Shown piece by piece: positions 4,902-51,232 of a stretch of DNA of 64,000 nucleotides (its first letter is position 1; each line of letters opens with the position of its first letter). Source of the stretch: Escherichia fergusonii ATCC 35469 (GTDB taxonomy: Bacteria; Pseudomonadota; Gammaproteobacteria; Enterobacterales; Enterobacteriaceae); contig NC_011740.1 of assembly GCF_000026225.1 (NCBI RefSeq), positions 4,161,576 to 4,225,575 of the forward strand, read 5' to 3'. The notes under the pieces are model-generated. The model did not search any database and was not told the origin of the DNA. It worked only from the letters and a program-made list of their open reading frames with translations. The position numbers and the translations under genes are program-made.

Positions 4902-5345
4902 TTATTCCTCCACATACGCCAGATTCAGCAACGGATACGGTTTCCCCAAATCGTCCACCTCAGAGCGCCCTGTAAACTTAAAGCCCATCTTCTTATAGAA
5001 CCCAACCGCCTGCTCATTTTGCTCATTAACATTGGTTGTCAGTTCCGGTGCCATTGAGAGTGCATGCTCCACCAGCATCCGGCCCACGCCGCAGCCGCGC
5101 ACATCAGGATCGATAAACAGCGCATCCATATGCTGCCCACTTAACAACATAAACCCAACCGGTTGATCCCGCTCATTAACCGCGACCCACAACGGTGCTT
5201 TCGGCAGAAAGGAACGCACCAGCTCTTCCAGCTCGGCCCGATACTCTGCTGATAAAAAATCGTGAGTGGCGTCGACAGAACGACACCAAATCGCAATGAG
5301 CTTTTCCCCTTCCTCATGCCGTGAGCGGCGAATACTAATAACCAT
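4902..5345 (-). CDS. yjaB: GNAT family N-acetyltransferase
   Basis: 147-aa ORF with an acetyl-CoA binding motif (RGCGVGRMLVEHAL). Its position between rrnE and metA matches K-12 as recalled. Confidence 0.8.
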   Translation of the reverse strand: MVISIRRSRHEEGEKLIAIWCRSVDATHDFLSAEYRAELEELVRSFLPKAPLWVAVNERDQPVGFMLLSGQHMDALFIDPDVRGCGVGRMLVEHALSMAPELTTNVNEQNEQAVGFYKKMGFKFTGRSEVDDLGKPYPLLNLAYVEE

Positions 5346-5458
5346 TTTCTCTCCTTTTAGTCATTCTTATATTCTAACGTAGCCTTTTCCTTGAAACTTT
5401 CTCACCTTCAACATGCAGGCTCGACATTGGCAAATTTTCTGGTTATCTTCAGCTATCT

Positions 5459-5482
5459 GGATGTCTAAACGTATAAGCGTAT
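5459..5482 (+). promoter_or_regulatory. Tandem MetJ 'met box'-like octamers upstream of metA
   Basis: GGATGTCT-AAACGTAT-AAGCGTAT resembles tandem AGACGTCT boxes. Lies 20-40 bp upstream of the metA start. Confidence 0.45.
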
Positions 5483-5501
5483 GTAGTGAGGTAATCAGGT
5501 T

Positions 5502-6431
5502 ATGCCGATTCGTGTGCCGGACGAGCTACCCGCCGTCAATTTCTTGCGTGAAGAAAACGTCTTTGTGATGACAACTTCTCGCGCGTCTGGTCAGGAAATT
5601 CGTCCGCTAAAGGTGCTTATCCTTAACCTGATGCCGAAGAAGATTGAAACTGAAAATCAGTTTTTGCGCCTGCTTTCAAACTCACCTTTGCAGGTCGATA
5701 TTCAGCTGTTGCGCATCGATTCCCGTGAATCGCGCAACACGCCCGCAGAGCATCTGAACAACTTCTATTGCAACTTTGAAGATATTCAGGAGCAGAACTT
5801 TGATGGCCTGATCGTCACCGGCGCGCCGCTGGGACTGGTGGAGTTTAATGACGTCGCTTACTGGCCGCAAATCAAACAGGTGCTGGAGTGGTCGAAAGAT
5901 CACGTCACCTCAACGCTGTTTGTCTGTTGGGCGGTACAGGCTGCGCTCAATATCCTCTATGGCATTCCTAAGCAAACCCGCACTGACAAACTCTCTGGCG
6001 TTTACGAACATCACATTCTCCATCCTCATGCACTTCTGACGCGTGGCTTTGATGATTCATTCCTGGCACCACATTCGCGCTATGCTGACTTTCCGGCAGC
6101 GTTGATTCGTGATTACACCGATCTGGAAATTCTGGCGGAGACAGAAGAAGGGGATGCCTATCTGTTTGCCAGCAAAGATAAGCGCATTGCCTTTGTGACA
6201 GGCCATCCCGAATATGATGCGCAAACGCTGGCGCAGGAATATTTCCGCGATGTGGAAGCCGGGCTGAATCCAGATGTACCGTATAACTATTTCCCGCATA
6301 ATGATCCGCAAAATACACCGCGAGCGAGCTGGCGTAGTCACGGTAATTTGCTGTTTACCAACTGGCTCAACTATTACGTCTACCAGATCACGCCATACGA
6401 TCTACGGCACATGAATCCAACGCTGGATTAA
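5502..6431 (+). CDS. metA: Homoserine O-succinyltransferase
   Basis: 309-aa [27 protein letters not shown]... matches MetA along its full length by recall. Confidence 0.9.
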
Positions 6432-6474
6432 TCTTCTGTAGCAGTCGATCGTTAAGCGTTTCAGCATGTTGAAT

Positions 6475-6498
6475 CAGGCACCTTCGGGTGCCTTTTTT
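6475..6498 (+). terminator. Rho-independent terminator after metA
   Basis: AGGCACCTTCGGGTGCCT followed by TTTTTTATTT. Confidence 0.75.
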
Positions 6499-6576
6499 AT
6501 TTCCGAAAACTTCTTCATTAAGTAAATAATTTTTAATTTTACTGTTATCAATAAGTTAACCATTAATTAAATTAAA

Positions 6577-6598
6577 AATGGAAATTGTTTTTGATTTT
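6577..6598 (+). promoter_or_regulatory. aceBAK promoter region with an IclR-box-like element
   Basis: AATGGAAATTGTTTTTGATTTT is a partial match to the IclR box TGGAAATnATTTCCA, in an AT-rich region about 100 bp upstream of aceB. Confidence 0.4.
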
Positions 6599-6699
6599 AC
6601 AATTTAATTGAGTAGTCTTAGTCGTGCTGAACGAAAAGCGCACAACGATCCTTCGTTCACATTTGGGATGCAGCAGGATCAAAGACGAGGGCTTACTCA

Positions 6700-8301
6700 A
6701 TGAATCAACAGGCAACAACAACCGAAGAATTAACCTTTACCATGCCATTCGGTGAGCAGGAGAAGCATATTCTTACTTCTGATGCTGTAGCATTTCTCAC
6801 TGAACTGGTGACACGTTTTACACCTCAGCGGAATAAATTACTGGCGGCGCGCATTCAGCAGCAGCAAGATATTGATAACGGAACGTTGCCTGATTTTATT
6901 TCGGAAACAGCTTCCATTCGTGATACAGACTGGAAAATTCGTGGTATTCCTGCGGACTTAGAAGATCGTCGGGTAGAGATTACCGGACCCGTAGAGCGCA
7001 AGATGGTGATCAACGCACTGAACGCCAATGTGAAAGTCTTTATGGCCGATTTCGAAGATTCACTGGCCCCGGACTGGAACAAAGTGATCGACGGGCAAAT
7101 TAACCTGCGCGATGCGGTTAATGGCACCATCAGTTACACCAATGAAGCAGGTAAAATTTACCAGCTCAAGCCCAATCCAGCGGTTTTGATTTGTCGGGTA
7201 CGCGGTCTGCACTTGCCGGAAAAACATGTCACCTGGCGTGGTGAGGCAATCCCCGGTAGCTTGTTTGATTTTGCGCTCTATTTCTTCCACAACTATCAGG
7301 CTCTGTTGGCAAAGGGCAGCGGTCCCTATTTCTATTTGCCGAAAACCCAGTCCTGGCAGGAGGCTGCCTGGTGGCGCGAAGTCTTCAGCTATGCAGAAGA
7401 TCGCTTTAATCTGCCGCGCGGTACCATCAAGGCGACGTTGCTGATTGAAACGCTGCCCGCCGTGTTCCAGATGGACGAAATCCTTCACGCGCTGCGTGAC
7501 CATATTGTTGGTCTGAACTGCGGTCGTTGGGATTACATCTTCAGCTATATCAAAACGTTGAAAAACTATCCCGATCGCGTCCTGCCAGACAGACAGGCAG
7601 TGACGATGGATAAACCATTCCTGAATGCTTACTCACGCCTGTTGATTAAAACCTGCCATAAACGTGGTGCTTTTGCGATGGGCGGCATGGCGGCGTTTAT
7701 TCCGAGCAAAGATGAAGAGCGCAATAACCAGGTGCTCAACAAAGTAAAAGCGGATAAAGCGCTGGAAGCCAATAACGGTCACGATGGCACATGGATCGCT
7801 CACCCAGGCCTTGCGGATACGGCAATGGCGGTATTCAACGACATTCTCGGCTCCCGTAAAAATCAGCTTGAAGTGATGCGCGAACAAGACGCGCCGATTA
7901 CTGCCGATCAGCTGCTGGCACCTTGTGATGGTGAACGCACCGAAGAAGGTATGCGCGCCAACATTCGCGTGGCTGTGCAGTACATCGAAGCATGGATCTC
8001 CGGCAACGGCTGCGTGCCGATTTATGGCCTGATGGAAGATGCGGCGACGGCTGAAATTTCCCGTACCTCCATCTGGCAGTGGATCCATCACCAAAAAACG
8101 TTGAGTAATGGCAAACCGGTGACCAAAGCCTTGTTCCGCCAGATGCTGGGCGAAGAGATGAAAGTCATTGCCAGCGAACTGGGCGAAGAACGTTTCTCCC
8201 AGGGGCGTTTTGACGATGCCGCACGCTTGATGGAACAGATCACCACTTCCGATGAGTTAATTGATTTCCTGACCCTGCCAGGCTACCGCCTGTTAGCGTA
8301 A
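6700..8301 (+). CDS. aceB: Malate synthase A
   Basis: 533-aa ORF, first gene of the glyoxylate-shunt operon. Malate synthase family by recall. Confidence 0.9.
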
Positions 8302-27169: not shown

Positions 27170-28042
27170 ATGCTGCCCGACTCATCTATCCGATTAAACA
27201 AATACATTAGCGAAAGTGGAATTTGCTCACGACGCGAAGCGGATCGCTTTATTGAACAAGGCAATGTGTTCATCAATGGCAAACGTGCCACCATTGGCGA
27301 CCAGGTTAAACCAGGCGACGTCGTGAAGGTAAATGGTCGGTTGATTGAGCCGCGTGAAGCAGAAGACTTAGTGCTTATTGCTCTGAACAAACCTGTAGGG
27401 ATCGTTAGTACTACGGAAGATGGCGAGCGCGACAACATCGTTGATTTCGTCAACCACAGTAAACGCGTGTTCCCGATAGGTCGTCTGGATAAAGACTCTC
27501 AGGGGCTGATTTTTCTCACTAACCATGGCGATCTGGTCAATAAGATCCTGCGTGCTGGCAATGATCATGAAAAAGAGTATCTGGTGACGGTCGATAAACC
27601 GATCACCGATGAATTTATTCGTGGTATGGGGGCGGGAGTACCGATCCTCGGAACGGTGACGAAAAAGTGCAAAGTCAAAAAAGAAGCACCATTTGTCTTT
27701 CGCATTACCCTTGTGCAGGGGCTGAACCGTCAGATCCGGCGCATGTGCGAGCACTTTGGTTACGAAGTGAAAAAGCTGGAACGTACGCGCATTATGAACG
27801 TCAGCTTAAGCGGCATTCCGTTGGGTGAGTGGCGCGATTTAACCGACGATGAGCTAATTGATCTCTTTAAATTAATTGAGAATTCTACTTCCGAGGTGAA
27901 ACCTAAAGCGAAGGCCAAACCGAAAACGGCGGGCATCAAACGCCCGGTGGTGAAGATGGAAAAAACATCAGAAAAAGGTGGCCGCCCGGCGTCAAATGGT
28001 AAACGTTTCACCTCGCCGGGGCGTAAGAAAAAAGGGCGCTAA
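27170..28042 (+). CDS. rluF: 23S rRNA pseudouridine(2604) synthase
   Basis: 290 aa from [25 protein letters not shown] (S4 domain) with catalytic [20 protein letters not shown]. Confidence 0.85.
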
Positions 28043-28240
28043 TCAGCGCCTGCCGCGCGTCGACGTATTTGCCGACCAGCTAAATGACGCTTCGGGATCG
28101 GGTTTATAAGCCTGCTTTTTCTTCAACTGGCGGGCTTTTTTCGCTTCAGCCTCACGTTCAACCATTAATTTATCGATGTACTCTTTCTTGATGCTGTTGG
28201 TTTCGGAGTTTGTCAGTACGCGACCATGCGCAATACGCGC
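27526..28240. repeat. Direct repeat copy 1 (~715 bp): rluF 3' two-thirds plus yjbD 3' three-quarters
   Basis: Matches 30118..30832 with a single mismatch seen (27556 c versus 30148 t). A further ~25 bp beyond is about 70% similar. Confidence 0.9.
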
Positions 28241-28267
28241 GCGAACCAGCAGCGTTTTAGCTCGCAT
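28043..28267 (-). pseudogene. yjbD (DUF3811) copy with a replaced N-terminus; junction of the GT island
   Basis: The 74-aa ORF is identical to the downstream full yjbD from ARIAHGRVLTN onward. Its first ~10 residues (MRAKTLLVRA) are unrelated because the repeat ends at 28240. Confidence 0.7.
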
Positions 28268-28317
28268 TGCTTGTTAATATTACTTTTAGCAAATAAAATA
28301 GAACGTTTTCCATATTT

Positions 28318-29460
28318 TTAGCTAAACCAGTTACTCAATGTTTTTTCAAATTTATGAGTAACTTGCCACCACAAATAATTTTCCAGAACAAATTTTTTTC
28401 CGCACTGTGCAGTATTAAGTAGATCAGAATTAGCAAGTACTGTTTCAATATCTGCTGCAATCGTTTCGGGTGTCATTGGTTCTTGTAAATGATATCCAGT
28501 TTCTTTATCTTTTACGAATTCAACCATTCCTCCACGAGTGCTCACCAATACCGGTTTTCCTGAGCCCATAGCTTCTATTGCTACCATACAAAATGGTTCC
28601 TGAAATTGAGAAGGAATAACAACTAAATCAGCTAAAGAATAATATTGATGCATTTCTTCAGGAGCAACTCCTCCTAACATATGACAGTGTGAACCGAGTT
28701 GTTTAGCTAATTTTTGAATTTGCTGTTGGTAAGCTCCTTTTTCTCCCTTACTTTTGTTTGTATAATCACCTATAACAACCAATTCTATATTATCATGAGA
28801 TCTAACAATTTTTTCAAATGCTTGCATAAGTAAAATAACTCCTTTTTCAGGAGATATCCTTCCTGCATAAAATATAATTTTTTTATCAGGGGGTATATTT
28901 AGATCTGCTTTTTTGATTTTCTTATGCTGTTTATCCATATTATATAAAGTTGTTCCATTTGGAACTATAGCGATTTCAGCATCAGGAAGAAATCCTTTAT
29001 AGTAGTTTTTTAAATAATTACTGGGAACAATCATTTTCACATTCTTATCCATCCCTCTTGGTTCATAAGCGTTATGCATATGCATTACTATTTTGGCATG
29101 AGGTGAGCGCTCGCGAATCTGACGATATAACTTCATGCTATTATGTACAATAATTACACTATCATCTGTAATGTTGAAATTTTTAGCAATATTCAAAATT
29201 CTTTGGGAATAAGGAAGTGGATCTATACGTGTCCATTTCTGAAATACACGTTTATAAATTCGACTAAATCCAATGCGATGAATTGAGCATCGTTCATTGA
29301 CAGTAGTAACGTCAGAATACCCATCTTCTTTTATACAAATAATTCTGTTCGGTATTCTTGTCATTTTAGCAACCTGATAAATCCAGGTTTCTACTGCAGC
29401 GGCGCCACGTGGAGGAATGGAAAAAATTGGTGTAACAGTGAAAATTATTTTATCAACCAT
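28318..29460 (-). CDS. Family-4 (GT-B, retaining) glycosyltransferase; horizontally acquired
   Basis: 380 aa. C-terminal EPFCMVAIEAMGSGKPVLVSTRGGMVEF is the GT4 E-x7-E region. Estimated by eye at about 30% GC. Confidence 0.8.
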   Translation of the reverse strand: MVDKIIFTVTPIFSIPPRGAAAVETWIYQVAKMTRIPNRIICIKEDGYSDVTTVNERCSIHRIGFSRIYKRVFQKWTRIDPLPYSQRILNIAKNFNITDDSVIIVHNSMKLYRQIRERSPHAKIVMHMHNAYEPRGMDKNVKMIVPSNYLKNYYKGFLPDAEIAIVPNGTTLYNMDKQHKKIKKADLNIPPDKKIIFYAGRISPEKGVILLMQAFEKIVRSHDNIELVVIGDYTNKSKGEKGAYQQQIQKLAKQLGSHCHMLGGVAPEEMHQYYSLADLVVIPSQFQEPFCMVAIEAMGSGKPVLVSTRGGMVEFVKDKETGYHLQEPMTPETIAADIETVLANSDLLNTAQCGKKFVLENYLWWQVTHKFEKTLSNWFS

Positions 29461-29502
29461 GAATTATTATCCTTTTCAATCGTTATTTTGCGGTGTTGAA
29501 TT

Positions 29503-29646
29503 TTAATAAAAATGAGAGTTGATTGTATGTATGAATGTTGATTTATTTAAGCACCAGCCTTTGTGTTGTGCTAACAGCAACGTGTTATCTGACCCATTTT
29601 TATTAGTGATAATCTTACTTTCCCGGAGGAATGAGACACTAAACAT
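29503..29646 (-). pseudogene. 5' remnant of a gene homologous to the start of the 33391..34119 glycosyltransferase-like gene
   Basis: The 47-codon ORF MFSVSFLRESKIIT... aligns with MFIVSVLRQSKDFT... of the downstream gene. The flanking ~115 bp of upstream DNA is about 70% identical between the two loci. Confidence 0.5.
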
Positions 29647-30117
29647 GCTGTTTCCTTGCATCGTCAGTTAGGAGACTAAAGGACAAACTATATTTGAAGT
29701 GATTTATAACGCAATATCTTTGTGCTTAAAAAAATGATTTTATTTGTTGTGCAAATACATTATGCAAATTAATTTGTTTTGTAAATGTGTTATTATCTGA
29801 CTCTGCGTCGTAACTCAGTTTATTACTATAAAAAAGGACATTGTGCTCGGCGTTATTGTTTTTAAAAAATCACTAGCTGGTGGACTGGTGGCTCAATAAA
29901 TCTTTCAGTTTCGGAACAGTTATAAAAAACCTTGCAGTTTGGCTACTGAAAAAGTTAAGCAAGAAATCAAAGGGGTCGCAATGGTTTACGAATCCTGCTA
30001 GCTGAAAGCTGTGCCGACCATATCTACATACTCGTAGACATCCCTCTGAAGATGAGTGTGTAGAGTTTCATGTGATATTTGAAGGGGAAAAGCAAGTCTG
30101 ATGCTTCATGAGCAGTT

Positions 30118-30634
30118 TGGCGATCTGGTCAATAAGATCCTGCGTGTTGGCAATGATCATGAAAAAGAGTATCTGGTGACGGTCGATAAACCGATCACCG
30201 ATGAATTTATTCGTGGTATGGGGGCGGGAGTACCGATCCTCGGAACGGTGACGAAAAAGTGCAAAGTCAAAAAAGAAGCACCATTTGTCTTTCGCATTAC
30301 CCTTGTGCAGGGGCTGAACCGTCAGATCCGGCGCATGTGCGAGCACTTTGGTTACGAAGTGAAAAAGCTGGAACGTACGCGCATTATGAACGTCAGCTTA
30401 AGCGGCATTCCGTTGGGTGAGTGGCGCGATTTAACCGACGATGAGCTAATTGATCTCTTTAAATTAATTGAGAATTCTACTTCCGAGGTGAAACCTAAAG
30501 CGAAGGCCAAACCGAAAACGGCGGGCATCAAACGCCCGGTGGTGAAGATGGAAAAAACATCAGAAAAAGGTGGCCGCCCGGCGTCAAATGGTAAACGTTT
30601 CACCTCGCCGGGGCGTAAGAAAAAAGGGCGCTAA
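30118..30634 (+). pseudogene. 5'-truncated rluF fragment (direct repeat copy 2); lacks the S4 domain and the catalytic Asp motif
   Basis: Identical to the rluF 3' region (residues GDLVNKIL... to the end). The new 5 N-terminal residues are created by the junction. Confidence 0.85.
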
Positions 30635-30832
30635 TCAGCGCCTGCCGCGCGTCGACGTATTTGCCGACCAGCTAAATGACGCTTCGGGATCGGGTTTATA
30701 AGCCTGCTTTTTCTTCAACTGGCGGGCTTTTTTCGCTTCAGCCTCACGTTCAACCATTAATTTATCGATGTACTCTTTCTTGATGCTGTTGGTTTCGGAG
30801 TTTGTCAGTACGCGACCATGCGCAATACGCGC
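30118..30832. repeat. Direct repeat copy 2 (~715 bp)
   Basis: See copy 1. Confidence 0.9.
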
Positions 30833-30907
30833 CCGATCCAGCAGTGTTTTAAGTTCACGTTGCTCGCGCTCAGTCATCTCTTTTTGGGTAATACGCGGGA
30901 GTGCCAT
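30635..30907 (-). CDS. yjbD: DUF3811 family protein, full length
   Basis: 90 aa, MALPRITQKEMTEREQRELKTLLDRARIAHGRVL.... Matches YjbD by recall. Confidence 0.75.
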   Translation of the reverse strand: MALPRITQKEMTEREQRELKTLLDRARIAHGRVLTNSETNSIKKEYIDKLMVEREAEAKKARQLKKKQAYKPDPEASFSWSANTSTRGRR

Positions 30908-31436: not shown

Positions 31437-32564
31437 ATGATTAAAAAAATAAGCGTAAGAAAAGATCAGCTGGCATTACTCTCCAGAAATGGCGATTACT
31501 ACAAAGTGCTGCATGCAGGCGAGCATCTTTTACCCTGGTTAAATACGCCAGAAGTCTTGCTGATTACGCTCGATGGCAGCGAAGTTCCCGACGTGCTGGC
31601 GGATTATTTGCGCCGCTTTCAGCCTGATTGGGTGGAAAGATATTGCGTGGTGGCCGACTTGTCGGAGACTGAAGCCGGGGCGTTGTATATGGACGGTATT
31701 TTGCTGGAGATCCTGCCGCCATCAACGCGTCGTTTGTACTGGCGTGTAGAGGATGATTTGACGCTTGTGCGGATGAATACGCAGCAAGTCCAGGTTCAAA
31801 CGGAGGTGATGAATGCGGTATTGCAGCCACGGCGCAAAGGGGCAGTTAAAGGCCGCGATGCGATACTGACGGTGCAGGTTCCGGCCTGGCACGTAGGCGT
31901 GCTGAAAATCGATGGTGAAACGCAGGCGCTGTTACCGCCGGGGCTGACCGCATACTGGAAAATAAATCATCTGGTTGAAGCTGAAGTTGTCGACACCCGC
32001 TTACAGGTTCTGGAAGTCAGCGGGCAAGAAATCTTAACGAAAGATAAGGTCAATCTGCGGATTAACCTCGCAGCTAACTGGCGCTACAGCGACGTGTTAT
32101 TGGCATTTAGTCAGTTAACGAAGCCGGTTGATCATTTGTATCGGGAATTGCAATTTGCACTGCGTGAAGCTGTAGGTACGCGTACGCTGGATGAATTACT
32201 GGAAGATAAACAGGTCATTGATGACGTTGTCAGCGAACAGGTGAAATCGCGCATGTTGCCATTTGGTATGGAGATTGCCTCATTAGGGGTGAAAGATATC
32301 GTCCTGCCTGGTGATATGAAAAATATCCTTGCGCAGCTGGTTGAGGCAGAGAAATCTGCGCAGGCCAATGTGATTCGCCGACGTGAAGAAACGGCAGCGA
32401 CGCGCTCGTTGCTGAACACCGCGAAGGTCATGGAAAACAACCCGGTAGCGCTGCGTTTAAAAGAGCTGGAAACGCTGGAGAGAGTGGCTGAGCGGATCGA
32501 TAACATCTCTGTATTTGGCGGTCTGGACCAGGTTCTGCACGGGTTAGTTAATATCAAAGGATGA
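31437..32564 (+). CDS. SPFH/band-7 (stomatin/prohibitin/flotillin-like) domain protein without an N-terminal membrane anchor
   Basis: 375 aa. The band-7 core is recognisable from residue ~150 on. The first 30 residues are not hydrophobic. Confidence 0.65.
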   Translation: MIKKISVRKDQLALLSRNGDYYKVLHAGEHLLPWLNTPEVLLITLDGSEVPDVLADYLRRFQPDWVERYCVVADLSETEAGALYMDGILLEILPPSTRRLYWRVEDDLTLVRMNTQQVQVQTEVMNAVLQPRRKGAVKGRDAILTVQVPAWHVGVLKIDGETQALLPPGLTAYWKINHLVEAEVVDTRLQVLEVSGQEILTKDKVNLRINLAANWRYSDVLLAFSQLTKPVDHLYRELQFALREAVGTRTLDELLEDKQVIDDVVSEQVKSRMLPFGMEIASLGVKDIVLPGDMKNILAQLVEAEKSAQANVIRRREETAATRSLLNTAKVMENNPVALRLKELETLERVAERIDNISVFGGLDQVLHGLVNIKG

Positions 32565-33361
32565 GTCAAATGCCAATAAATGGAGTCAGTGCTGCGATGC
32601 GCGAACGGGTATCGCAGCAATTAAAAGAAATAGAACGTCGCTATGGCGTGAAAGTGCTGTACGCCTGCGAATCGGGGAGTCGCGGTTGGGGATTTGCCTC
32701 TCCCGACAGCGACTACGATGTACGATTTTTGTATGTTCACCCGCTGGAATGGTATCTGCGGGTGGAGGCGCCGCGCGATGTTATTGAGTTGCCTATTGAC
32801 GACGAGTTAGATGTTTCAGGCTGGGAGTGGCGCAAGGCGCTGGGATTACTGAAAGGAGCGAATCCGACGCTGATAGAATGGCTGGATTCTCCGGTGGTCT
32901 ATCAACAAGATGAAGAAACGATAACGCCGCTTAAGGCAATGGTGCCGAAGTGGTTTTCTCCGCTGCGTGCGCGTTGGCATTATTATTCGATGGCGCGGAA
33001 AAACTTTCGCGGTTATTTGCAGGGCGACGTAGTTCGGCTGAAAAAATACTTTTACGTGCTGCGACCACTACTGGCTGTGCGTTGGGTTGAAGCGGGAAAA
33101 GGCGTACCGCCAATGCGCTTTGCCGAGTTACTGGCGGGAAGCGAGCTTGATGCACCGTTACGTGCAGAAATAGACGAACTGCTGGAACGTAAACAGCGCG
33201 CGGGAGAAGCGGAATATGGTCCGCGCCGTCCTTTGTTACATGCGTTTATTCGTGTGGAACTGGCGCGTGGGGAAATTCCACCAGTGTTACCGGACAGCAG
33301 GGACGGAGATGCCAGGGAACTGGATGGGTTGTTGTATCAAACAGTGATACGCCGGGCGTGA
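32561..33361 (+). CDS. Minimal (Pol-beta superfamily) nucleotidyltransferase with a C-terminal helical domain
   Basis: 266 aa. N-terminal GSRGWGFASPDSDYDV is the classic hG[GS]...D-x-D NTase motif. ATGA start/stop overlap with the SPFH gene. Confidence 0.65.
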   Translation: MSQMPINGVSAAMRERVSQQLKEIERRYGVKVLYACESGSRGWGFASPDSDYDVRFLYVHPLEWYLRVEAPRDVIELPIDDELDVSGWEWRKALGLLKGANPTLIEWLDSPVVYQQDEETITPLKAMVPKWFSPLRARWHYYSMARKNFRGYLQGDVVRLKKYFYVLRPLLAVRWVEAGKGVPPMRFAELLAGSELDAPLRAEIDELLERKQRAGEAEYGPRRPLLHAFIRVELARGEIPPVLPDSRDGDARELDGLLYQTVIRRA

Positions 33362-33372
33362 TGCCCGGCGCC
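33350..33372. terminator. Stem-loop between convergent genes
   Basis: GCCGGGCGTGATGCCCGGC followed by GCCTTCC. Confidence 0.5.
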
Positions 33373-33390: not shown

Positions 33391-34119
33391 TTACCGAAGA
33401 GAATATTTGAGCTGTTTAAATTTGCTGCAGAGTGTGTTTTTTATGCTGAAACCTGGAACCCAGTGGAGAGCTGTGTTCCAGGGACGAGGTGAACCGTGAA
33501 AACATACAATTTTTGCATCCGATGGCAATTCTCCGTTTGCTTTACCATCGTGTAAGTCAGGATTAAAGCCTATCATTTTAGGCGTCGCTATATTCGCTTT
33601 GTAACTGATAATTTGTCCTGGAAAAATATCCTGCCATCTTTCAGCGTCATGACATACTCTGCCGATAAATCCCTGATCCCCATGATATGGCGGCTTTCTG
33701 GTTGAATTTATTTCAGTTTCAGGCGATCTCATAAACTCTTCCCAGACAAGTTTTTTGGCGTCCGCAGGAATGAACATTATTCCAGTCGCAGGAGCAGCAT
33801 TGGAACCATGCTGCGAGAAGTCGTTCAGTAATGTTACTTTTTTCATTTTAGTAAACTGTGTAATATCACCGACGATTACAGTATCAATATCAATATAAAG
33901 TATATCTTCATTCCCGATAACAGGATGTTCGGGATTAAATAGCTCTAATTTTGCCCACCATCCTGGCCAATTATACAGTAATGGAGTGGTTTGAACCCCT
34001 TTGATTTCTGAAGCATCCGTCATGCAAATGGAATTATACCCATCCAGCTGCTGGTGAAGCCATTGTGCATGTTTAATAGTGAAATCCTTACTTTGTCTGA
34101 GAACTGAGACAATAAACAT
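33391..34119 (-). CDS. Hypothetical DxD-motif protein, possible GT-A-like glycosyltransferase; AT-rich
   Basis: 242 aa. ILYIDIDTVIVGD gives a DxD after a hydrophobic beta-strand. Last gene after the tail-fiber module. Low GC. Confidence 0.4.
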   Translation of the reverse strand: MFIVSVLRQSKDFTIKHAQWLHQQLDGYNSICMTDASEIKGVQTTPLLYNWPGWWAKLELFNPEHPVIGNEDILYIDIDTVIVGDITQFTKMKKVTLLNDFSQHGSNAAPATGIMFIPADAKKLVWEEFMRSPETEINSTRKPPYHGDQGFIGRVCHDAERWQDIFPGQIISYKANIATPKMIGFNPDLHDGKANGELPSDAKIVCFHGSPRPWNTALHWVPGFSIKNTLCSKFKQLKYSLR

Positions 34120-34332
34120 GTAATTTCCCTGTAGCGATTAGCAAAATATATAAGTAGTGAACTATATTTGATGTAATTTACAATGCAATAGTTATTGTAT
34201 TTAAATTCTTCTATATTCACTCAGTGGATGGTTAATATGGAAATATAATTACTGTGAATATTTATAAGCATGTGCTTTGTTTGTGATGGAATATACAGCC
34301 TGATTAAAGCCGGGCTTGAAGCCCGGCGTAGT

Positions 34333-34788
34333 TTATGGTTGATATTGCCAACTGTTAACTAAAGCGTACAAGTGGTTTGGGGAATAGCGCCAACTTTCTT
34401 TTAATTGCAGAAATTCGGCACAAAATTCGCTACAAAACAGGCGATCGCGCTGTTCTTTATTGCCGGTGATAATTCCTAAGGCTCCACGCCAGTCGTATTT
34501 TTTGCCATCATGTTTACGGAAAAAAGCTTCTACATCCTGAAGGCTGACCTGGAGCGGCAGCATATCCCACTTGTCTGGCGGTAAAGGCATTATCTTTCCA
34601 CGAACGCCGCGATCGCGCAGAGAGGCGGAGTAACAAAGGTAACTCTTTTCTCCATGTGCTACGGCTAATTCACAGTGGGAATAACTGCCGCGAGTGATTT
34701 TGCGTGTAAGCCAGTCAGCCAGTCTCGCAATAACCCGGTGCTCTGTTCGCCCTTTATAGCAAGCGAGCCAGACTGTAGTTTTACTCAT
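34333..34788 (-). CDS. YiiX/YaeF-like permuted papain-fold (NlpC/P60 superfamily, C92-like) protein
   Basis: 151 aa. GKKYDW...LFCSEFC and SHCELAV match the YiiX catalytic Cys/His context by recall. ATGA overlap with the upstream tfa gene. Confidence 0.5.
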   Translation of the reverse strand: MSKTTVWLACYKGRTEHRVIARLADWLTRKITRGSYSHCELAVAHGEKSYLCYSASLRDRGVRGKIMPLPPDKWDMLPLQVSLQDVEAFFRKHDGKKYDWRGALGIITGNKEQRDRLFCSEFCAEFLQLKESWRYSPNHLYALVNSWQYQP

Positions 34789-35492
34789 GGTTGCCAGCCT
34801 GTTGAATAATCGTAGTCGAGTACCGACTGAATATCGTCCAGAGCTTCCACCGCCGCGATATGGCGTTGGGCGTTGGCAAACAAGCGTATATCGTGATCCA
34901 TTGTGACGGATTCAAACTGGGCAGCGATTTCGTTGGTTAACTCAGTCAGACCATTATTTTTAGTTTTCCACATTAAACCTGGCGGAATTTTTTTCTCCGC
35001 TCCCATTTTTGTGAGTGAGAGTTGTTGGATGCGGCTGCTTGTATCACTGTGGAAGTAATTGTCGTTGATGATGATGTAGTCGGTAGTGATGGAGTCGCGC
35101 AATGTTTTGATTTCGGCACATTTCGCCTGTTTAGCATCATCAATTGATGGCTGCCATTTTTCGCCATCCCAACGCTCAAAAGTACTGGTAGGGGAAATGA
35201 TGGTGACAGTTTCAGGCAATTGACCCAATTTATTAATAATAATCTGGCTGCCATCAACTTTGTTATAAACAGTTTGGCCTCGATGATCTTCAATAAGTTC
35301 CCATTTATTAATTGACCATATAGAAGTAAAACCTGCAATTTTTTGTGGTGGTGGTGTTAATGTGCAGTAATTCGGTAGTCCAGTGTTTGGTGCTATATAT
35401 ACATTGGACTCACCAATAAATTCTTGTGTGTCTGGTGAAAAATTAAAAACAGATAAAATTTGTGCGTTATCGGAAAAAGTAAAAGTATTCAT
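34785..35492 (-). CDS. Phage tail fiber assembly protein (Tfa / gpG / Mu U-like)
   Basis: 235 aa. Tfa family by recall. Overlaps the tail fiber stop. Confidence 0.75.
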
Positions 35493-37069
35493 GCAAGCCT
35501 CACAATATAATTGAATGCAATGTTTTTAACAGTATTTTCTGTATTGCCAGTGTTATTGATGATAATTGAGTGATTATGTGTACCTAACACAATATTATGT
35601 GTATGACTTCCCAGTGCGATTGTATGTGCATGGGCGCCAATCGTAATACTATGATAATGACTACCAGCAGACTCAGTAGGTTCTCTGTAGTTCTCATCTG
35701 AATTGGGGCTGTTCCATAAAGACGGTCCATCTTTACCTTCTGCACCATCAGTTGGTATTCGGTGTGTATGTTCTCCAGATGTGCTTGTATTTCTACTTCC
35801 ATGATTAAATGAAGCTGTAGTTTTTGTTCCTAAGTCCGTAGAGGTAGATGTTATTGTCCCTAAATTGGTACTAGAAATACTGCCCGTATGGTTATGTGAT
35901 TTAACTCCATCCAGTTCAGTAGATAATATAGCGCGCCCACTGGATGGTTTTCCTTTAATTATCCATCCGCGCATATCAGGAATAACGCCAGATGGATATG
36001 CAATTGCCAGTTTGGGATAGGAGGTTTTATTAAATGTCTGACCAGTCATCAGAGCGTAGCCTGAAGGTACAGAATCAGATGGCCAGGGTATAGGCATCCC
36101 TACAGGACAGCTTTCCGCAGCAATAGCCTTATCCATCGCTGCCTTAACCGCGTTCGGCGTTGCAGCTTCCGTCGTACTGGTGCTGTTGGTCGCATTATTA
36201 AGTTTCACGACCCCTTTTTGTGTCAGCGTACCGTCGGGGATACCTGTTATTTGCCCCCAGGCATGGGTATGGCTGGACGGTGCCGCAGCAATAGCCTTGT
36301 CCATCGCTGCTTTAACAGCACTTGGCGTTGCAGCTTCCGTTGTACTGGTGCTATTTGTTGTGTTGTTAAGTTTAACGACTCCTTTCTGCGTCAGTGTACC
36401 ATCAGGGATACCAGTAATCTGACTCCAGGCATGATTATGACTGGTGGCAGCTTTGCTATTTGCCAGGTCATATGCCGTTTTTACCGCTTTTGGCGTGGCC
36501 GCTTTGGTTTCATCATCGCTATTAGTCGCATTACTCAGCTGCGTAAAACCTTTTTGTGTCAGCGTCGCATCAGGATGATTTCGTGATTGCTGATGTGTTT
36601 TCAACGCGTCATCGACATATTCCCTGGTTGCCACAACGACTGAAGGGTCGATCAAAAGCGTCACCGCATCTGCATTGGTGACTTCCATGACCGCGCGTAT
36701 AACGATTTGCTTACTGGCCCCCGCAGGTAATCGTGGCTTATAGGTTTCAGGGATTTTTCCGATAGCGACCAGCGTGCCGTCGGTATCCAGTAACCCAACT
36801 TCGCGTACATACCAGCCTCCGACTTGTTCGGGAATAATCGCTTCCGCGATAACCCAGGCCGGATTATCTGGCGCAATTTTTAACGTATTGAGCTGACCAC
36901 GCCAGACCTCATGGACTACTTTAGTCTGACTTTCTGTCGGTTCGATATATTTACCATTACCGTCGCCAACTACCATAGTTTGCAGACGGATCTGTTTTTG
37001 CTCCGTCAATGCAGAGGCAATTTTGGCTTTGCCTGCAGTAGTTAATATTGTAAAAAATTCACTTGCCAT
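35489..37069 (-). CDS. Phage tail fiber protein (P2 gpH / Mu S / lambda Stf-like) with tandem repeats and a His-rich C-terminus
   Basis: About 526 aa from [21 protein letters not shown] (SD GGAGGA; the track ORF starts 41 codons earlier, inside gpI). Two 168-bp tandem repeats. C-terminal HxH-rich tip. Confidence 0.8.
36117..36452. repeat. 2 x 168-bp tandem repeat inside the tail-fiber gene, plus a degenerate third unit to ~36620
   Basis: GCAGCAATAGCCTT[A/G]TCCATCGCTGC... recurs at 36117 and 36285. Encodes a ~56-aa repeat ([24 protein letters not shown]...[18 protein letters not shown]). Confidence 0.85.
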
Positions 37070-37803
37070 TATTCCTCCGGATATACAGACATAATTTCGG
37101 TGCTCCAGTATCCTGTGCCGACCTTCATCGGTTGGGATTGTGTAAGGCGATCGGGTTGATAAGGTAGTAGTTGGATATATTCCTCCACACAATAACCCGT
37201 CGCTAAAAATATTCCTGATGACTGGCTGAGGCTTTCTGCAACAGGAGGCAATACTGTAATGACTTCCCCTCCTTGCATGGCGCTGCCAATAACTGGTATT
37301 GGGCTTCGATTAATAAGCCAAATAACAATGCTTTCCAGCTTTGAACGAACATTTTTATATTCATGAATTAATGTGATAAGTGCATTGAATTCATCTTCAT
37401 TTAATCCTTTTTCCTCTAGTGTAATATTTACCTTAAAAAAATAAGCCCTTCCCCCATATTCAAACCATTCTGAAATAGTTCCGGGTAAGGAAAGTATTTC
37501 CAGCACCCGCCGTACCGCCCAAATTGTTCCTTTATATTTATGCAGTTCAATGGCTTGTTTAATTAACTCGCGCTTCTCCCGCTCATCGGTGGTAAATAAC
37601 CAACCTTCCAGCCCCTGAACGTGAAATTGTTCTGCAAGGGCTGGTAATGCCGAAGCATCAACCAGGTCGACCAGATAAACCATCAACGCCGTCAGATCGA
37701 GTTGGGCAAAACGCTCGGCGGCGATGTTTGCCAGAATCGAAAAACGCTCATCGCTGGCAAGCGGCGGCGGTGGCAGCAATTTATCCATCGCTGACTCCGG
37801 CAA
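37069..37803 (-). CDS. Baseplate protein (P2 gpI / Mu gp48-like)
   Basis: 244 aa. Its stop overlaps the tail-fiber start (TAATG). Position follows the J-like gene. Confidence 0.65.
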
Positions 37804-50158: not shown

Positions 50159-51088
50159 TTATTCTTGTGAATTCCCGCTGATTTCATTCTGGATAAGCGT
50201 CGCAATATTGTCATTCGATGCCGCTTGTGAACTAAATATCATCTTCTCACGCGCATACACCGCAAACTTATCTGCCAGATTCGAAGCAAACACCTTACTG
50301 GCATTCTCTGTCAGCAAATCGGTGACGATATCATGGTGATTTTTATCCACTTTTCGGGCGATATTTCCCGCCTCTTTGTCCTTATTATACCGTTCATTGG
50401 TGCTTTCCCAGCTTACCGTCGCTGAGGTGGTTTTTATCATGACGTTTGTTTGGTAGCCTGCATCTTTGAGTTTTTTTAATGTTTGTAGCGGCGTAGCGGC
50501 ATTACGAAATGTTCCTTCGACAACAATGTTGAGTTTACCGACTATCGCTCTCTCAATTGCTCGTTCGACCGTTTCGCCGGAAAATTTCGCCGTATGGGTA
50601 ACAAAATCATCCCCATAAGTTTGGTAGATATAATTAAAATCAGGGTGTAGAAACCGGAAATCATCACCGTTAATAATCATTATATTATTCTTTGTTTCCC
50701 TTTTTGCTAATTCAATCAGCGATGATTTACCCGCTCCGGGTTGCCCACCTAAAACAAAACCAATGGGATGCTGTTGCGGTGTGACTTCATGATTTGTCAG
50801 ACGCTGCCAAATAGAATCAAAAGATACTTTATTTTCTGAATGTGCAGTATTATTGAATTCACGCTGATATTGAGTTCTTACCTGCTGAAGGTGACTCTTT
50901 CCCTGTGTAAAATCAACAAATTCAGCTGGAGTGGAATAAAGATAATCGCGATAGCCGACTAATCGTGTGAGATCATCGACTGAATCCTGACATGACGAAA
51001 TGGAGCGATTATCAACGATATTTGATAAAAACGCGATGCACTGACTGGCTCCGTTTAAAAGAGCATCTTTTTCCATTAATGTAGCCAT
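50159..51088 (-). CDS. Zeta-toxin-family P-loop kinase with a ~110-aa N-terminal extension; no adjacent antitoxin ORF
   Basis: Walker A GGQPGAGKS in a zeta/PezT-like context. ATG start chosen at MATLMEKD with SD GGAGTG; the track ORF starts at a GTG two codons upstream (51094). Confidence 0.6.
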   Translation of the reverse strand: MATLMEKDALLNGASQCIAFLSNIVDNRSISSCQDSVDDLTRLVGYRDYLYSTPAEFVDFTQGKSHLQQVRTQYQREFNNTAHSENKVSFDSIWQRLTNHEVTPQQHPIGFVLGGQPGAGKSSLIELAKRETKNNIMIINGDDFRFLHPDFNYIYQTYGDDFVTHTAKFSGETVERAIERAIVGKLNIVVEGTFRNAATPLQTLKKLKDAGYQTNVMIKTTSATVSWESTNERYNKDKEAGNIARKVDKNHHDIVTDLLTENASKVFASNLADKFAVYAREKMIFSSQAASNDNIATLIQNEISGNSQE

Positions 51089-51232
51089 TAACACTCCTGT
51101 TAAATGATATTTTTCGGTGATTATAATACTGTTCTACAGGAGTGATTTTATTTTTCAGATATTATTTGATCTATGTTTTCAGTGAGGATGGCGTATAACA
51201 ATTGGTGAGCGTTATACGCCAGTAGGAAAATA

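What the first reader, a model, noticed from the sequence alone, without database searches (positions are those of the whole stretch)
29503..29745. The GT4 island and the tailocin-end DxD-glycosyltransferase-like gene share a homologous promoter/5'-coding module
Plus-strand 29611..29728 aligns with 34083..34200 at roughly 70% identity. Matching blocks include GAGACA[C/A]TAAACATG, TTTCC[T/C]TG, ACTATATTTGA and GCAATA. The alignment covers the start codon and first ~16 codons of the 242-aa gene at 34119. A 47-codon remnant ORF upstream of the GT4 gene (MFSVSFLRESKIIT) is similar to MFIVSVLRQSKDFT. Two different putative sugar-transferase cassettes therefore sit behind the same 5' module, one at the tail-fiber end of the tailocin and one 4.5 kb away. 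This fits a cassette-swapping system, possibly surface-glycan modification that sets susceptibility or self-immunity to the tailocin or to phages.
Basis: seen in the sequence. Interest (0 to 1): 0.6.

Follow-up and report, generated by a model that had tools for sequence, protein, structure and literature searches.

The report
Shared moron promoter, two glycosyltransferase genes
Two unrelated sugar-transferase genes in an Escherichia fergusonii chromosome share a ~140-bp promoter-plus-gene-start, because one gene once replaced the body of the other at the end of a phage-tail (tailocin) gene cluster; the homology is real, but it is an ordinary product of phage-style gene shuffling, not an active cassette-swapping device.

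Summary
Window 29595-29730 aligns with 34068-34205 at 71.6% over 141 columns (blastn E 1.7e-10 in a whole-window self-search). It is one of only three repeats in the window.

On the minus strand the module is a sigma-70-like promoter core (TTGCNT-16 nt-TATAGT), a diverged 5'UTR, an RBS, an ATG and 17 codons. It is native to the 242-aa gene, a GT8-like DxD glycosyltransferase related to phage P1 PmgQ. That gene is the last gene of a head-less P2-type tail cluster.

Upstream of the GT4 gene (WaaK-type LPS GlcNAc-transferase, NCBIfam PRK15484) the module is a truncated relic. In E. ruysiae/cryptic-clade Escherichia the same relic+GT4 unit sits in the tailocin-end slot. In E. albertii it sits elsewhere in the same neighbourhood.

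All GT4 copies share one breakpoint, which indicates a single ancient gene replacement. Viral, genome and metagenome scans found only these two cargos. No recombinase is present, and the longest shared exact word is 12 bp. "Shared 5' module on two GT cassettes" is therefore supported, and "cassette-swapping system" is not.

A role in LPS modification and tailocin or phage immunity is plausible but untested. Slot cargo does not track fibre type.

The parts
34161..34188 (-). Promoter-like core, copy B: -35 TTGCAT (34188-34183), 16-nt spacer, -10 TATAGT (34166-34161)
   Evidence: It is conserved at 82-86% between the 242-type and GT4-type copies and with the Salmonella-type copy, while the flanking 5'UTR is only 23-46% identical. 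There are exactly two copies in the window. The simple promoter scan does not call it, because the -35 hexamer matches 3 of 6.
34068..34205 (-). Module copy B: promoter core, ~41-nt 5'UTR, RBS (GGGAA), ATG at 34119 and the first 17 codons of the 242-aa gene
   Evidence: blastn 71.6% over 141 columns, E 1.7e-10, against 29595-29730. Alignments A1 and A2.
33391..34119 (-). 242-aa GT-A/GT8-like DxD glycosyltransferase, a PmgQ/HdmD relative. It is the intact, native owner of the module and the terminal moron of the tail cluster.
   Evidence: PHROG 1962 at E 9e-99. 36% identity to P1 PmgQ / P7 HdmD. AF2 pLDDT 95.6. Best PDB fold matches are LgtC, glycogenin and other GT8 enzymes, E 8e-8, TM 0.5-0.57. 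D77 and D79 are invariant in 46 homologues. dN/dS is 0.06 against the Salmonella-type copy. GC is 40.5% against 47-53% for neighbours.
33348..33369 (.). GC hairpin after the 242-aa gene, shared with the convergent RlaP gene. It is one of two hairpin copies that bracket the cargo slot.
   Evidence: Inverted-repeat pair I2. Fold energy -22 kcal/mol. Empty-slot E. coli A37 has a single copy.
34309..34330 (.). GC hairpin directly after the 151-aa gene. It is the terminator-like end of the tail operon and the upstream boundary of the slot.
   Evidence: terminator-like call; -16.7 kcal/mol.
34333..34788 (-). Conserved 151-aa last structural-side gene of the tail cluster, used as the anchor of the slot. 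The tail cluster continues to about 49987.
   Evidence: Pfam hits for gpU, tape measure, tube, sheath, Gp37, SLT and Mor, with no head, terminase or integrase genes. The cluster is bounded by RlaP and by zeta-toxin/lysC.
29687..29714 (-). Promoter-like core, copy A: -35 TTGCGT (29714-29709), 16-nt spacer, -10 TATAGT (29692-29687)
   Evidence: It is 96-100% identical among the E. fergusonii, E. albertii and clade GT4 units, while the 60 nt upstream are 53-63% identical and the 5'UTR 78-82%.
29595..29730 (-). Module copy A: promoter core, 5'UTR, RBS (AGGAA), ATG at 29646 and 17 relic codons
29503..29646 (-). 47-codon relic ORF. Codons 1-17 are homologous to the 242-aa gene and the rest is unrelated. 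It is not conserved as a peptide.
   Evidence: Length varies between lineages: 47, 44, 71 or 21 codons. dN 0.135 / dS 0.276 against E. albertii, compared with dN 0.040 for GT4.
29461..29594 (-). Unit-specific leader between the breakpoint and the GT4 start, with its own Shine-Dalgarno sequence (AAGGA) 6 nt before the ATG at 29460
   Evidence: It is found only in GT4 units and has no similarity to 242-type genes or proteins. One lineage (L034) has lost ~140 bp of it between short direct repeats.
28318..29460 (-). GT4 gene: WaaK-type lipopolysaccharide N-acetylglucosaminyltransferase homologue, lying outside any waa cluster
   Evidence: NCBIfam PRK15484 at 701.7 bits against a 618 cut-off, full length. 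Pfam Glycos_transf_1 at 1.7e-40. dN/dS 0.14-0.15 across three species. GC 33.6%.
28267..29804 (-). Extent of the transferable 'module + relic + GT4' unit, as defined by homology to other species
   Evidence: 90% identity to E. albertii over 28267-29745, and 82% identity to E. ruysiae/clade loci over 28344-29804.
29868..30117 (+). Decayed IS200/IS605-family remnant between the unit and the rluF' duplicate. It has the left end and tnpA with a ~136-bp internal deletion and a stop codon.
   Evidence: Sub-threshold Rfam STnc490 hit at 29868-29970.
27526..28271 (.). Left copy of the 747-bp direct repeat (3' part of rluF plus 5'-truncated yjbD') that flanks the GT4 island
   Evidence: 98.9% identical to 30118-30864. 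Pfam PseudoU_synth_2 and DUF3811.
30118..30864 (.). Right copy of the 747-bp direct repeat (5'-truncated rluF' plus most of the intact yjbD at 30635-30907)

Best explanation
The shared segment is the expression module of a phage-type 'moron'. It consists of a sigma-70-like promoter, a 5'UTR, an RBS, a start codon and 17 codons.

The module belongs natively to a PmgQ-like, GT8-fold glycosyltransferase gene (242 aa). That gene sits between two terminator hairpins, after the tail-fibre-assembly and 151-aa genes of a head-less P2-type tail cluster (a tailocin-like element).

Once, in an ancestor within Escherichia, a WaaK-type LPS GlcNAc-transferase gene (GT4) with ~135-190 bp of its own leader was joined by illegitimate recombination after codon 17 of such a gene. 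This replaced the body of the gene and kept its promoter and translation start.

The resulting ~1.5-kb unit (promoter, relic ORF, leader, GT4) spread among Escherichia species. It now lies at three different points of the same lysC-rluF neighbourhood:
- in the tailocin-end slot in E. ruysiae and cryptic clades;
- between an RlaP remnant and yjbD in E. albertii;
- between a 747-bp rluF'-yjbD duplication, next to an IS200 relic, in E. fergusonii (this window).

This E. fergusonii genome also has the intact 242-aa version in its tailocin slot. That is why two diverged (~72%) copies of the module lie 4.5 kb apart.

Shown: the homology, the direction of the event (intact gene to relic), the single breakpoint, slot polymorphism, and purifying selection on both enzymes.

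Inferred: that the core is a working promoter driving GT4 through the relic ORF, and that the enzymes decorate the LPS core and so change receptors for tail fibres of phages or tailocins.
For: Homology is significant and unique in the window.

The module is native to the 242-type gene:
- The closest orthologue (78% aa) sits in the same position after the 151-aa gene in the Salmonella-type clusters and shares the promoter core and start.
- The N-terminus is a conserved strand of a widespread family, with V6 invariant and L7 near-invariant.

The GT4 copy is a relic. Homology stops after codon 17 in all four GT4-type variants at the same column, and is followed by unrelated sequence and stop codons.

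The same relic+GT4 unit occupies the tailocin-end slot directly after the 151-aa gene in L030/L045, L034/L039, L043 and L106-108. It lies at another position in E. albertii.

Slot states (empty, 242, GT4) are documented.

The conservation profile fits a functional promoter. The core is 96-100% identical among GT4 units and 82-86% between types. The upstream flank is 27-63% identical, and the 5'UTR is 23-46% identical between types.

Both enzymes are under purifying selection: dN/dS 0.14-0.15 and 0.06. Both are AT-rich relative to neighbours, at 33.6% and 40.5% against 47-53%.

Only these two cargos lie behind the module in the IMG/VR, genome-representative and metagenome scans. The other hits are chance matches with no further homology.
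Against: - No transcript or TSS data exist. The simple sigma-70 scan does not call either copy, because the -35 hexamer matches 3 of 6.
- Part of the apparent invariance of the core is ascertainment. The clade and some Salmonella-type copies were found with a pattern that fixes 20-21 of the 28 positions. The E. albertii, L002 and window copies were found independently.
- The donor of GT4 and its leader was not found. An ancestral tandem operon with a later deletion therefore cannot be excluded.
- The mechanism that placed the unit between the 747-bp repeats is unexplained.
- The genome-contig scans missed the source species, so that negative result is weak for Escherichia.
- The LPS and immunity role has no direct support here. 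Identical fibre/TFA types occur with different slot cargo, and GT4 occurs without the tail cluster.
Confidence: 0.75

Rival explanations
1. Active cassette-swapping system. The module is a common 5' conserved segment at which different glycosyltransferase cassettes are repeatedly exchanged, as in an integron or shufflon, to retune surface glycans.
For: Two different GT genes lie behind one module. The slot after the 151-aa gene is polymorphic and is bracketed by two copies of a GC hairpin that could serve as short recombination anchors. A hexapeptide acetyltransferase occupies the same slot in L054.
Against: Only two cargo types lie behind the module in all collections scanned, and L054 has no module. 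All GT4 copies share one breakpoint. The in-window copies are 72% identical with a longest exact word of 12 bp. No recombinase, invertase or repeated att-like sites are present in 27-35.5 kb. Divergence between the 242-type and GT4-type modules is as deep as that between the E. fergusonii and Salmonella-type 242 copies, so the event is old.
Confidence: 0.07
2. Deletion within an ancestral two-gene operon. A 242-type GT gene was once followed by GT4, and an internal deletion removed codons 18-242, leaving the relic. Nothing was 'replaced'.
For: It would give the same end product. One lineage (L034) shows that deletions between short direct repeats do occur in this leader.
Against: No locus with both genes in tandem was found among 100+ loci. 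The leader shows no similarity to the 3' end or downstream region of any 242-type gene.
Confidence: 0.13
3. Dead relic. The module upstream of GT4 is a non-functional fossil, and GT4 is transcribed from another promoter in the leader, the AT-rich 29746-29867 stretch or the IS200 remnant.
For: There is no expression evidence. The -35 hexamer is weak. The relic ORF evolves almost neutrally, with dN/dS about 0.5.
Against: The module is the only upstream sequence shared by the three genomic contexts in which GT4 is kept under purifying selection. The IS200 remnant is absent from the E. albertii and clade contexts. The promoter core is 96-100% conserved while adjacent non-coding DNA is 53-82% conserved.
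Confidence: 0.15
4. Chance similarity or a generic AT-rich regulatory motif.
For: Both regions are AT-rich (27-32% GC), which inflates weak matches.
Against: E 1.7e-10 in the window-wide search, and a score of 83 against a shuffle maximum of 37. The similarity runs colinearly through promoter, RBS, ATG and 17 codons. There are only two copies in the window with 3 mismatches allowed. No module match appeared among the listed E. coli hits. The only hit among 185,579 species representatives is a chance one.
Confidence: 0.01

Closest known systems
Phage 'morons' (promoter-ORF-terminator units inserted between conserved late genes, such as lambda/HK97 morons and the Z/fun hot spot after the tail-fibre genes of P2-like phages; from general knowledge)
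   Same: An AT-rich foreign gene with its own promoter-like core and a flanking terminator hairpin is inserted between two genes that are adjacent in relatives. The insertion lies next to tail-fibre and assembly genes. Presence and absence vary between strains.
   Different: The host element is a head-less tail cluster rather than a complete prophage. One moron's expression module has been re-used for a second, unrelated enzyme gene, and that derived unit has left the element.
Glycosyltransferase genes in the hypervariable tail-fibre region of Xenorhabdus xenorhabdicin (tailocin) loci, proposed to give self-resistance (PMC13280938)
   Same: GT genes are physically linked to the fibre end of an R-type tailocin locus. 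The hypothesis that they alter LPS so that sister cells are not targeted is the same.
   Different: The genus and the enzymes differ (mannosyl- and glycosyltransferases there). In that study the association with killing spectra was statistical. Here, cargo does not track fibre type in the small sample available. No shared promoter module was reported there.
Lysogenic conversion by phage LPS-modifying enzymes (gtrABC, Oac of Shigella/Salmonella phages; Pseudomonas D3; from general knowledge)
   Same: A mobile-element-borne enzyme presumably changes an LPS receptor and so protects against superinfection.
   Different: There is no GtrA/GtrB/GtrC or O-acetyltransferase here. The enzymes are cytoplasmic core-type GTs (GT4 WaaK-like and GT8-like). 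The target is probably the core, not the O-antigen. Function is untested.
WaaK (RfaK), the LPS outer-core alpha-1,2-GlcNAc transferase of Salmonella and E. coli R2 (NCBIfam PRK15484)
   Same: Full-length match above the curated cut-off. About 74% nucleotide identity to a Salmonella waaK fragment next to a candidate waaZ gene, identified from recalled Salmonella waa gene order rather than by any search.
   Different: It is not in a waa cluster. It is driven by a phage-type module, is AT-rich and is mobile. Homologues (72% aa) lie in P1-like phage-plasmids beside tail-fibre-assembly genes.
Phage P1 PmgQ / P7 HdmD
   Same: The 242-aa protein is a homologue (36% identity over 93% of its length). 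PmgQ is dispensable for P1 plaque formation in a CRISPRi screen (PMC10695390), as expected for an accessory gene.
   Different: The genome position in P1 is different (next to ppp), and no upstream homology was detected for the other phage homologues tested (Chuche, Chlobot). The function of PmgQ is unknown, so it gives no mechanistic help.
Integron or shufflon-type cassette systems
   Same: One expression module sits in front of alternative cargo genes.
   Different: There is no integrase or invertase, no attC/sfx-like repeats, only two cargos, a single ancient junction, and copies too diverged to recombine.

Membership tests
Phage/tailocin moron | Inserted between two genes that are adjacent in related elements | tested here: met
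   The 151-aa gene is followed directly by RlaP in E. coli A37, in E. fergusonii L014/L015 and in six IMG/VR loci. It is followed by the 242-type gene or by the GT4 unit in others.
Phage/tailocin moron | Own promoter | tested here: inconclusive
   A TTGCNT-16-TATAGT core is selectively conserved, but it falls below the scan's threshold. There are no transcript data.
Phage/tailocin moron | Own terminator | tested here: met
   This holds for the 242-aa gene: a hairpin at 33348-33369 with -22 kcal/mol. It does not hold for the displaced GT4 unit in this window, where the best fold after the stop codon is -4.9 kcal/mol.
Phage/tailocin moron | Base composition distinct from the host element | tested here: met
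   GT4 33.6%, 242-aa gene 40.5% and upstream regions 27-32% GC, against 50.4% for the tail cluster.
WaaK-type LPS N-acetylglucosaminyltransferase (NCBIfam PRK15484, GT4) | Full-length HMM match above the curated cut-off | tested here: met
   701.7 bits against 618, residues 1-379 of 380. Glycos_transf_1 at 1.7e-40.
WaaK-type LPS N-acetylglucosaminyltransferase (NCBIfam PRK15484, GT4) | Encoded in the waa (rfa) core-biosynthesis cluster | tested here: not met
   It lies between yjbD' and an IS200 relic next to rluF.
WaaK-type LPS N-acetylglucosaminyltransferase (NCBIfam PRK15484, GT4) | Transfers GlcNAc to the outer-core glucose | not testable with these tools
   This needs LPS core chemistry on a deletion mutant.
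GT8-like retaining GT-A glycosyltransferase (LgtC / glycogenin / WaaJ type) | GT-A fold resembling GT8 structures | tested here: met
   AF2 pLDDT 95.6. Top Foldseek PDB hits are LgtC 1ss9/1g9r, glycogenin, GlyE and 3tzt, with E 8e-8 to 1e-5, probability 1.0 and TM 0.5-0.57. This is moderate similarity.
GT8-like retaining GT-A glycosyltransferase (LgtC / glycogenin / WaaJ type) | DxD metal/nucleotide-sugar motif | tested here: met
   D77 is invariant and D79 is at least 90% conserved in 46 homologues (YIDIDT).
GT8-like retaining GT-A glycosyltransferase (LgtC / glycogenin / WaaJ type) | Sequence membership in Pfam Glyco_transf_8 or a solved relative | tested here: not met
   No Pfam-A or NCBIfam hit. 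No significant PDB sequence hit. Only PHROG 1962 'glycosyltransferase' matches.
Integron/shufflon-like cassette exchange system | Site-specific recombinase plus repeated recombination sites | tested here: not met
   No integrase or invertase ORF in 27-35.5 kb. The only repeats are the rluF-yjbD duplication, the module and two hairpins.
Integron/shufflon-like cassette exchange system | Several alternative cassettes joined at the same site by independent events | tested here: not met
   Two cargos only, and one shared breakpoint.
R-type tailocin (head-less contractile tail cluster) | Complete tail, baseplate and fibre genes plus lysis and regulator genes, with no capsid, terminase or integrase genes | tested here: met
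   Sheath, tube, tape measure, gpU, baseplate V/W/J/I, fibre, TFA, SLT and Mor lie between RlaP and zeta-toxin/lysC. Nothing head-related is present. Killing activity is not testable here.

The most novel reading that the evidence does not exclude
The end-of-tailocin slot in Escherichia carries exchangeable LPS-core-modifying 'immunity' genes: a GT8-like hexosyltransferase, a WaaK-like GlcNAc-transferase, or elsewhere an acetyltransferase. These would mask the receptor of the linked tail fibre, so the slot would be the tailocin counterpart of a bacteriocin immunity gene. The re-used promoter module would ensure constitutive, lysogen-type expression. The GT4 unit's escape to nearby chromosomal sites would let strains keep immunity after losing or changing the weapon.
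Probability: 0.2. Interest if true: 0.65.

Novelty: new member of a known kind. Interest (0 to 1): 0.35.

Why it matters
This is a clear case of how a moron's promoter and translation start can be recycled for an unrelated gene by one illegitimate join. It also shows how the resulting unit then moves within a chromosomal neighbourhood across species.

It points to two accessory LPS-type glycosyltransferases that vary independently among E. fergusonii, E. albertii and cryptic-clade strains, and that are physically or historically tied to the fibre end of a tailocin-like cluster. If they alter the LPS core, they would affect phage and tailocin susceptibility, serology and possibly host interaction in these emerging pathogens. 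The four natural genotypes (both, either, neither) would allow that test.

The mechanism itself (mosaic recombination, lysogenic-conversion-like genes) is well known. The tailocin-linked GT self-resistance idea has already been proposed for Xenorhabdus.

Tried and rejected
- A first self-blastn run with megablast scoring missed the repeat. With blastn scoring it is significant.
- I first took the 2592-bp-spaced repeats for IS copies. They are a duplication of rluF 3' plus yjbD.
- The 'Salmonella phage S.Kent' 1.7-kb record that matched the GT4 start looks like host-chromosome waaK beside a candidate waaZ (my reading from recalled gene order; the record is unannotated and no family search was run). 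It is not a phage context.
- A megablast search of the island and of the 242 region against 5,426 complete E. coli genomes gave no match. The distant search found only IS200 for the island, and 66-68% coding-only matches for the 242-aa gene.
- The genome contigs pattern scans gave 0 hits, then 1 chance hit (Ohtaekwangia). They did not even return the source species, so they are weak evidence.
- A tblastn search for the origin of the 134-bp leader and of the relic-ORF tail in 242-type proteins gave only noise.
- PADLOC: no defence-system hits for GT4, the 242-aa, 151-aa, slipin, RlaP or zeta-toxin proteins.
- Rfam: nothing at the module.
- A test for coupling between slot cargo and fibre/TFA type found the same types with different cargo.
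- Literature: no functional data for PmgQ beyond non-essentiality. No paper on prophage-borne waaK. The ST131 'tailocin' paper concerns another locus.
Full report
**Observation**

- A local alignment of 29450-29800 against 34000-34350 scores 83, against 21.7 +/- 2.9 for shuffles.
- A sensitive blastn self-comparison of the whole window reports 29595-29730 vs 34068-34205 at 71.6% over 141 columns, E = 1.7e-10. Only two other repeats appear in the 64 kb.
- Both genes are on the minus strand. The alignment runs colinearly from ~85 nt upstream of the start codons, through the ATGs (34119 and 29646), to codon 17.

**Anatomy of the module**

Read on the coding strand, the module has these elements:

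| Element | Sequence |
|---|---|
| -35 | TTGC(A/G)T |
| Spacer | 16 nt |
| -10 | TATAGT |
| 5'UTR | ~40 nt |
| RBS | GGAA-type |
| Start | ATG |
| N-terminus | MF(I/S)VS(V/F)LR(Q/E)SK..T |

A segment-wise comparison shows two conserved islands separated by diverged DNA.
- The 28-nt -35..-10 core is 82-86% identical between the two types, and 96-100% identical among GT4-linked copies from three species.
- The 60 nt upstream are 27-63% identical.
- The 5'UTR is 23-46% identical between types.
- The first 17 codons are 78-80% identical between types.

This is the pattern expected of a working promoter and translation-initiation region, but it is inference. The simple promoter scan does not call either site, because the -35 hexamer matches 3 of 6. 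Part of the invariance is also built into the search pattern I used. The core occurs only twice in the window even with three mismatches allowed, and no Rfam family matches it.

**The two genes**

The 242-aa protein has no Pfam or NCBIfam hit.
- It belongs to PHROG 1962, annotated 'glycosyltransferase, moron' (E 9e-99).
- It is 36% identical to phage P1 PmgQ / P7 HdmD.
- An AlphaFold model built on 46 homologues is confident, with pLDDT 95.6.
- Its best PDB neighbours are GT8 enzymes: LgtC, glycogenin and GlyE, with E down to 8e-8 and TM 0.5-0.57.
- The YIDID motif has D77 invariant and D79 near-invariant.

GT4 is a full-length match to NCBIfam PRK15484, 'lipopolysaccharide N-acetylglucosaminyltransferase' (WaaK type), at 701.7 bits against a cut-off of 618.

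Both genes are AT-rich relative to their surroundings (33.6% and 40.5% GC against ~50%). Both are under purifying selection (dN/dS 0.14-0.15 and 0.06).

**Genomic setting**

The window is Escherichia fergusonii. Both proteins are identical to CAQ91509.1 and CAQ91515.1 (B7LKX4_ESCF3), and the DNA is ~91% identical to E. coli.

Positions 34333 to ~49987 encode a P2-type contractile tail. The genes cover fibre, assembly protein, baseplate, gpD/X/U, tape measure, tube, sheath, Gp37, an SLT lysis enzyme and a Mor-type activator. There are no head, terminase or integrase genes. The cluster is inserted between RlaP and zeta-toxin/lysC. This is a tailocin-like cluster.

The 242-aa gene is the last gene of the cluster. 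It lies between two copies of a GC hairpin (34309-34330 and 33348-33369). E. coli A37, which lacks the gene, has one hairpin between the 151-aa-type gene and RlaP. This is the classical anatomy of a moron.

**Where the module comes from**

The closest orthologues of the 242-aa gene (78% aa) are the Salmonella-type clusters. There the gene occupies the same position after the 151-aa gene and carries the same promoter core and start. More distant homologues (phages Chuche and Chlobot, E. coli plasmids, a P2-like prophage) share only coding sequence. The module is therefore native to this sub-lineage of the 242-aa gene.

Upstream of GT4 only codons 1-17 survive. They are followed by unrelated sequence and a stop codon, giving the 47-codon ORF at 29503-29646. 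A further 42 nt lead to the GT4 start, which has its own Shine-Dalgarno sequence. A 17-codon fragment of the first beta-strand of a GT-A fold cannot be an enzyme, so the direction is intact gene to relic.

**The key comparative result**

A degenerate pattern for the promoter core was scanned in IMG/VR. The 151-aa protein was used to fetch 65 related tail-cluster ends.
- In L030/L045, L034/L039 and L043, and in chromosomal loci L106-L108, the same 'module + relic + leader + GT4' unit lies directly after the 151-aa gene. Sources name these proteins E. ruysiae or cryptic Escherichia clades, and the GT4 is 82-84% identical at the amino-acid level. This is exactly where E. fergusonii has the 242-aa gene.
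- In E. albertii the unit (90% nucleotide identity to 28267-29745) lies between a 3' remnant of RlaP and yjbD. It is also present in strains with no tail cluster at all.
- In E. fergusonii it lies between yjbD' and an IS200 relic, inside a 747-bp rluF'-yjbD duplication. Again it occurs with or without the tail cluster and with or without the 242-aa gene.

All GT4-linked copies diverge from the 242-type sequence at the same column. One lineage (L034) has additionally lost ~140 bp of leader between short direct repeats. The metagenome scan recovered the same two classes. The four remaining metagenome matches, and the single genome-representative match, share nothing beyond the pattern itself.

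**Interpretation**

The evidence supports one ancient illegitimate recombination. It placed a WaaK-type gene, with its own leader, behind the promoter and start of a PmgQ-like moron at the tailocin end. The ~1.5-kb unit then spread and was relocated.

The evidence does not support an ongoing cassette-exchange device:
- there are two cargos only;
- there is one junction;
- no recombinase is present;
- the two copies in this genome share at most a 12-bp exact word, which from general knowledge is below what RecA-dependent recombination needs.

The relic ORF is open in all variants (47, 44, 71 or 21 codons). In two lineages it ends on or just after the GT4 start, which would allow translational coupling. 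It evolves nearly neutrally as a peptide, so I regard it as a by-product, not a gene.

**Function**

The inferred role is that both enzymes add a sugar to the LPS core, and so alter receptors for tail fibres. This rests on family membership and on analogies:
- WaaK-type and GT8 core transferases (general knowledge);
- GT4 homologues (72% aa) with an acetyltransferase beside the tail-fibre-assembly gene of P1-like phage-plasmids;
- a fragment of a third GT4 lineage directly after a tail-assembly gene in E. albertii;
- the proposal that GT genes in Xenorhabdus tailocin loci give self-resistance (PMC13280938), and the general view that producers are immune because their LPS does not bind their own fibres (PMC12090994).

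Against a tight fibre-matched immunity role, identical fibre/TFA types occur with empty, 242 or GT4 slots, and GT4 persists without the tailocin. 'Empty' strains may, however, carry the unit elsewhere. No PADLOC model matches. P1 pmgQ is non-essential (PMC10695390), which is uninformative about its function.

**Verdict**

This is a new example of known processes: moron acquisition, mosaic gene replacement and lysogenic-conversion-type LPS genes. It has a tidy comparative history and offers a testable, but not novel, hypothesis about tailocin and phage susceptibility. Interest is moderate to low (0.35).

Noticed in passing
window 27526-28271 and 30118-30864: A 747-bp direct repeat (98.9% identical) duplicates the 3' 534 nt of rluF plus most of yjbD (DUF3811). 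It flanks the 1.85-kb GT4 island. The left copy completes an intact rluF but truncates yjbD to 74 aa, and the right copy is the reverse. It is present in all ten E. fergusonii contexts examined. The structure looks like Campbell-type integration of a ~2.6-kb circle, or homology-facilitated illegitimate recombination. The mechanism is unexplained.
   Followed up: partly
window 29868-30117 (+): A decayed IS200/IS605-family element. It has the left end and tnpA, with a ~136-bp internal deletion and an in-frame stop, and is cut off at the rluF' junction with ~9 bp of possible microhomology. There is a sub-threshold Rfam STnc490 hit at 29868-29970.
   Followed up: partly
window 36115-36574 (inside tail-fibre ORF 35489-37192, minus strand): Three in-frame tandem copies of a 168-nt unit (74-83% identical) lie in the tail-fibre gene. 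This is a repeated 56-residue fibre module.
   Followed up: no
L004 (E. coli p1919D3-2) 5250-7774; L005 (E. albertii pEA22_2): ~95-kb plasmids carrying holin, lysis, tail-fibre and tail-fibre-assembly genes carry a 72%-aa GT4 homologue plus a hexapeptide acetyltransferase. I take them to be P1-like phage-plasmids from their size and gene content, without testing this. The GT4 and acetyltransferase genes lie between the holin/lysis genes and the tail-fibre-assembly gene, and converge on the latter. No copy of the module is present. In pEA22_2 an IS5-like element separates the two genes.
   Followed up: partly
L100 and L103 (E. albertii) 4951-5303: A 3' fragment of a third, more divergent GT4 lineage (72% nucleotide identity to the window gene) lies directly after a Caudo_TAP tail-assembly gene, upstream of the RlaP remnant and the intact GT4 unit. 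This suggests repeated association of WaaK-type genes with fibre ends.
   Followed up: no
L054 4777-5208: In one Salmonella-type genome a second tail cluster has a hexapeptide-repeat acetyltransferase after the same 151-aa gene, without the module. This is another kind of cargo in the slot.
   Followed up: partly
window 33348-33369 and 34309-34330: The cargo slot is bracketed by two copies of a GC hairpin (GCCGGGC-N4-5-GCCCGGC). The clade GT4 slot is bracketed in the same way, and the empty slot of E. coli A37 has one copy. The hairpin may be the recurrent insertion point.
   Followed up: partly
window 31437-33361 and 50159-51094: A slipin (SPFH/Band 7) gene overlapping an RlaP nucleotidyltransferase gene lies between yjbD and the tail cluster. 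A zeta-toxin-domain gene lies at the other end, next to lysC. None matches PADLOC. Slipin is absent in the clade loci, and both slipin and RlaP are partly deleted in E. albertii.
   Followed up: no
L011 8896-13143 (E. fergusonii CP042945): In one strain an integrase and genes typical of a lambdoid/P22-type prophage (ERF, anti-RecBCD) replace the sorC regulator immediately upstream of rluF. This adds to the evidence that the neighbourhood is a recombination hot spot.
   Followed up: no
Genome-contig scans: The pattern scans of species-representative genomes did not return E. fergusonii, although the window's proteins are identical to accessions CAQ91509.1 and CAQ91515.1 (UniProt B7LKX4_ESCF3). 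I take these to be from the type strain ATCC 35469. The source genome appears to be missing or masked there, so negative results from that collection are weak for this species.
   Followed up: no
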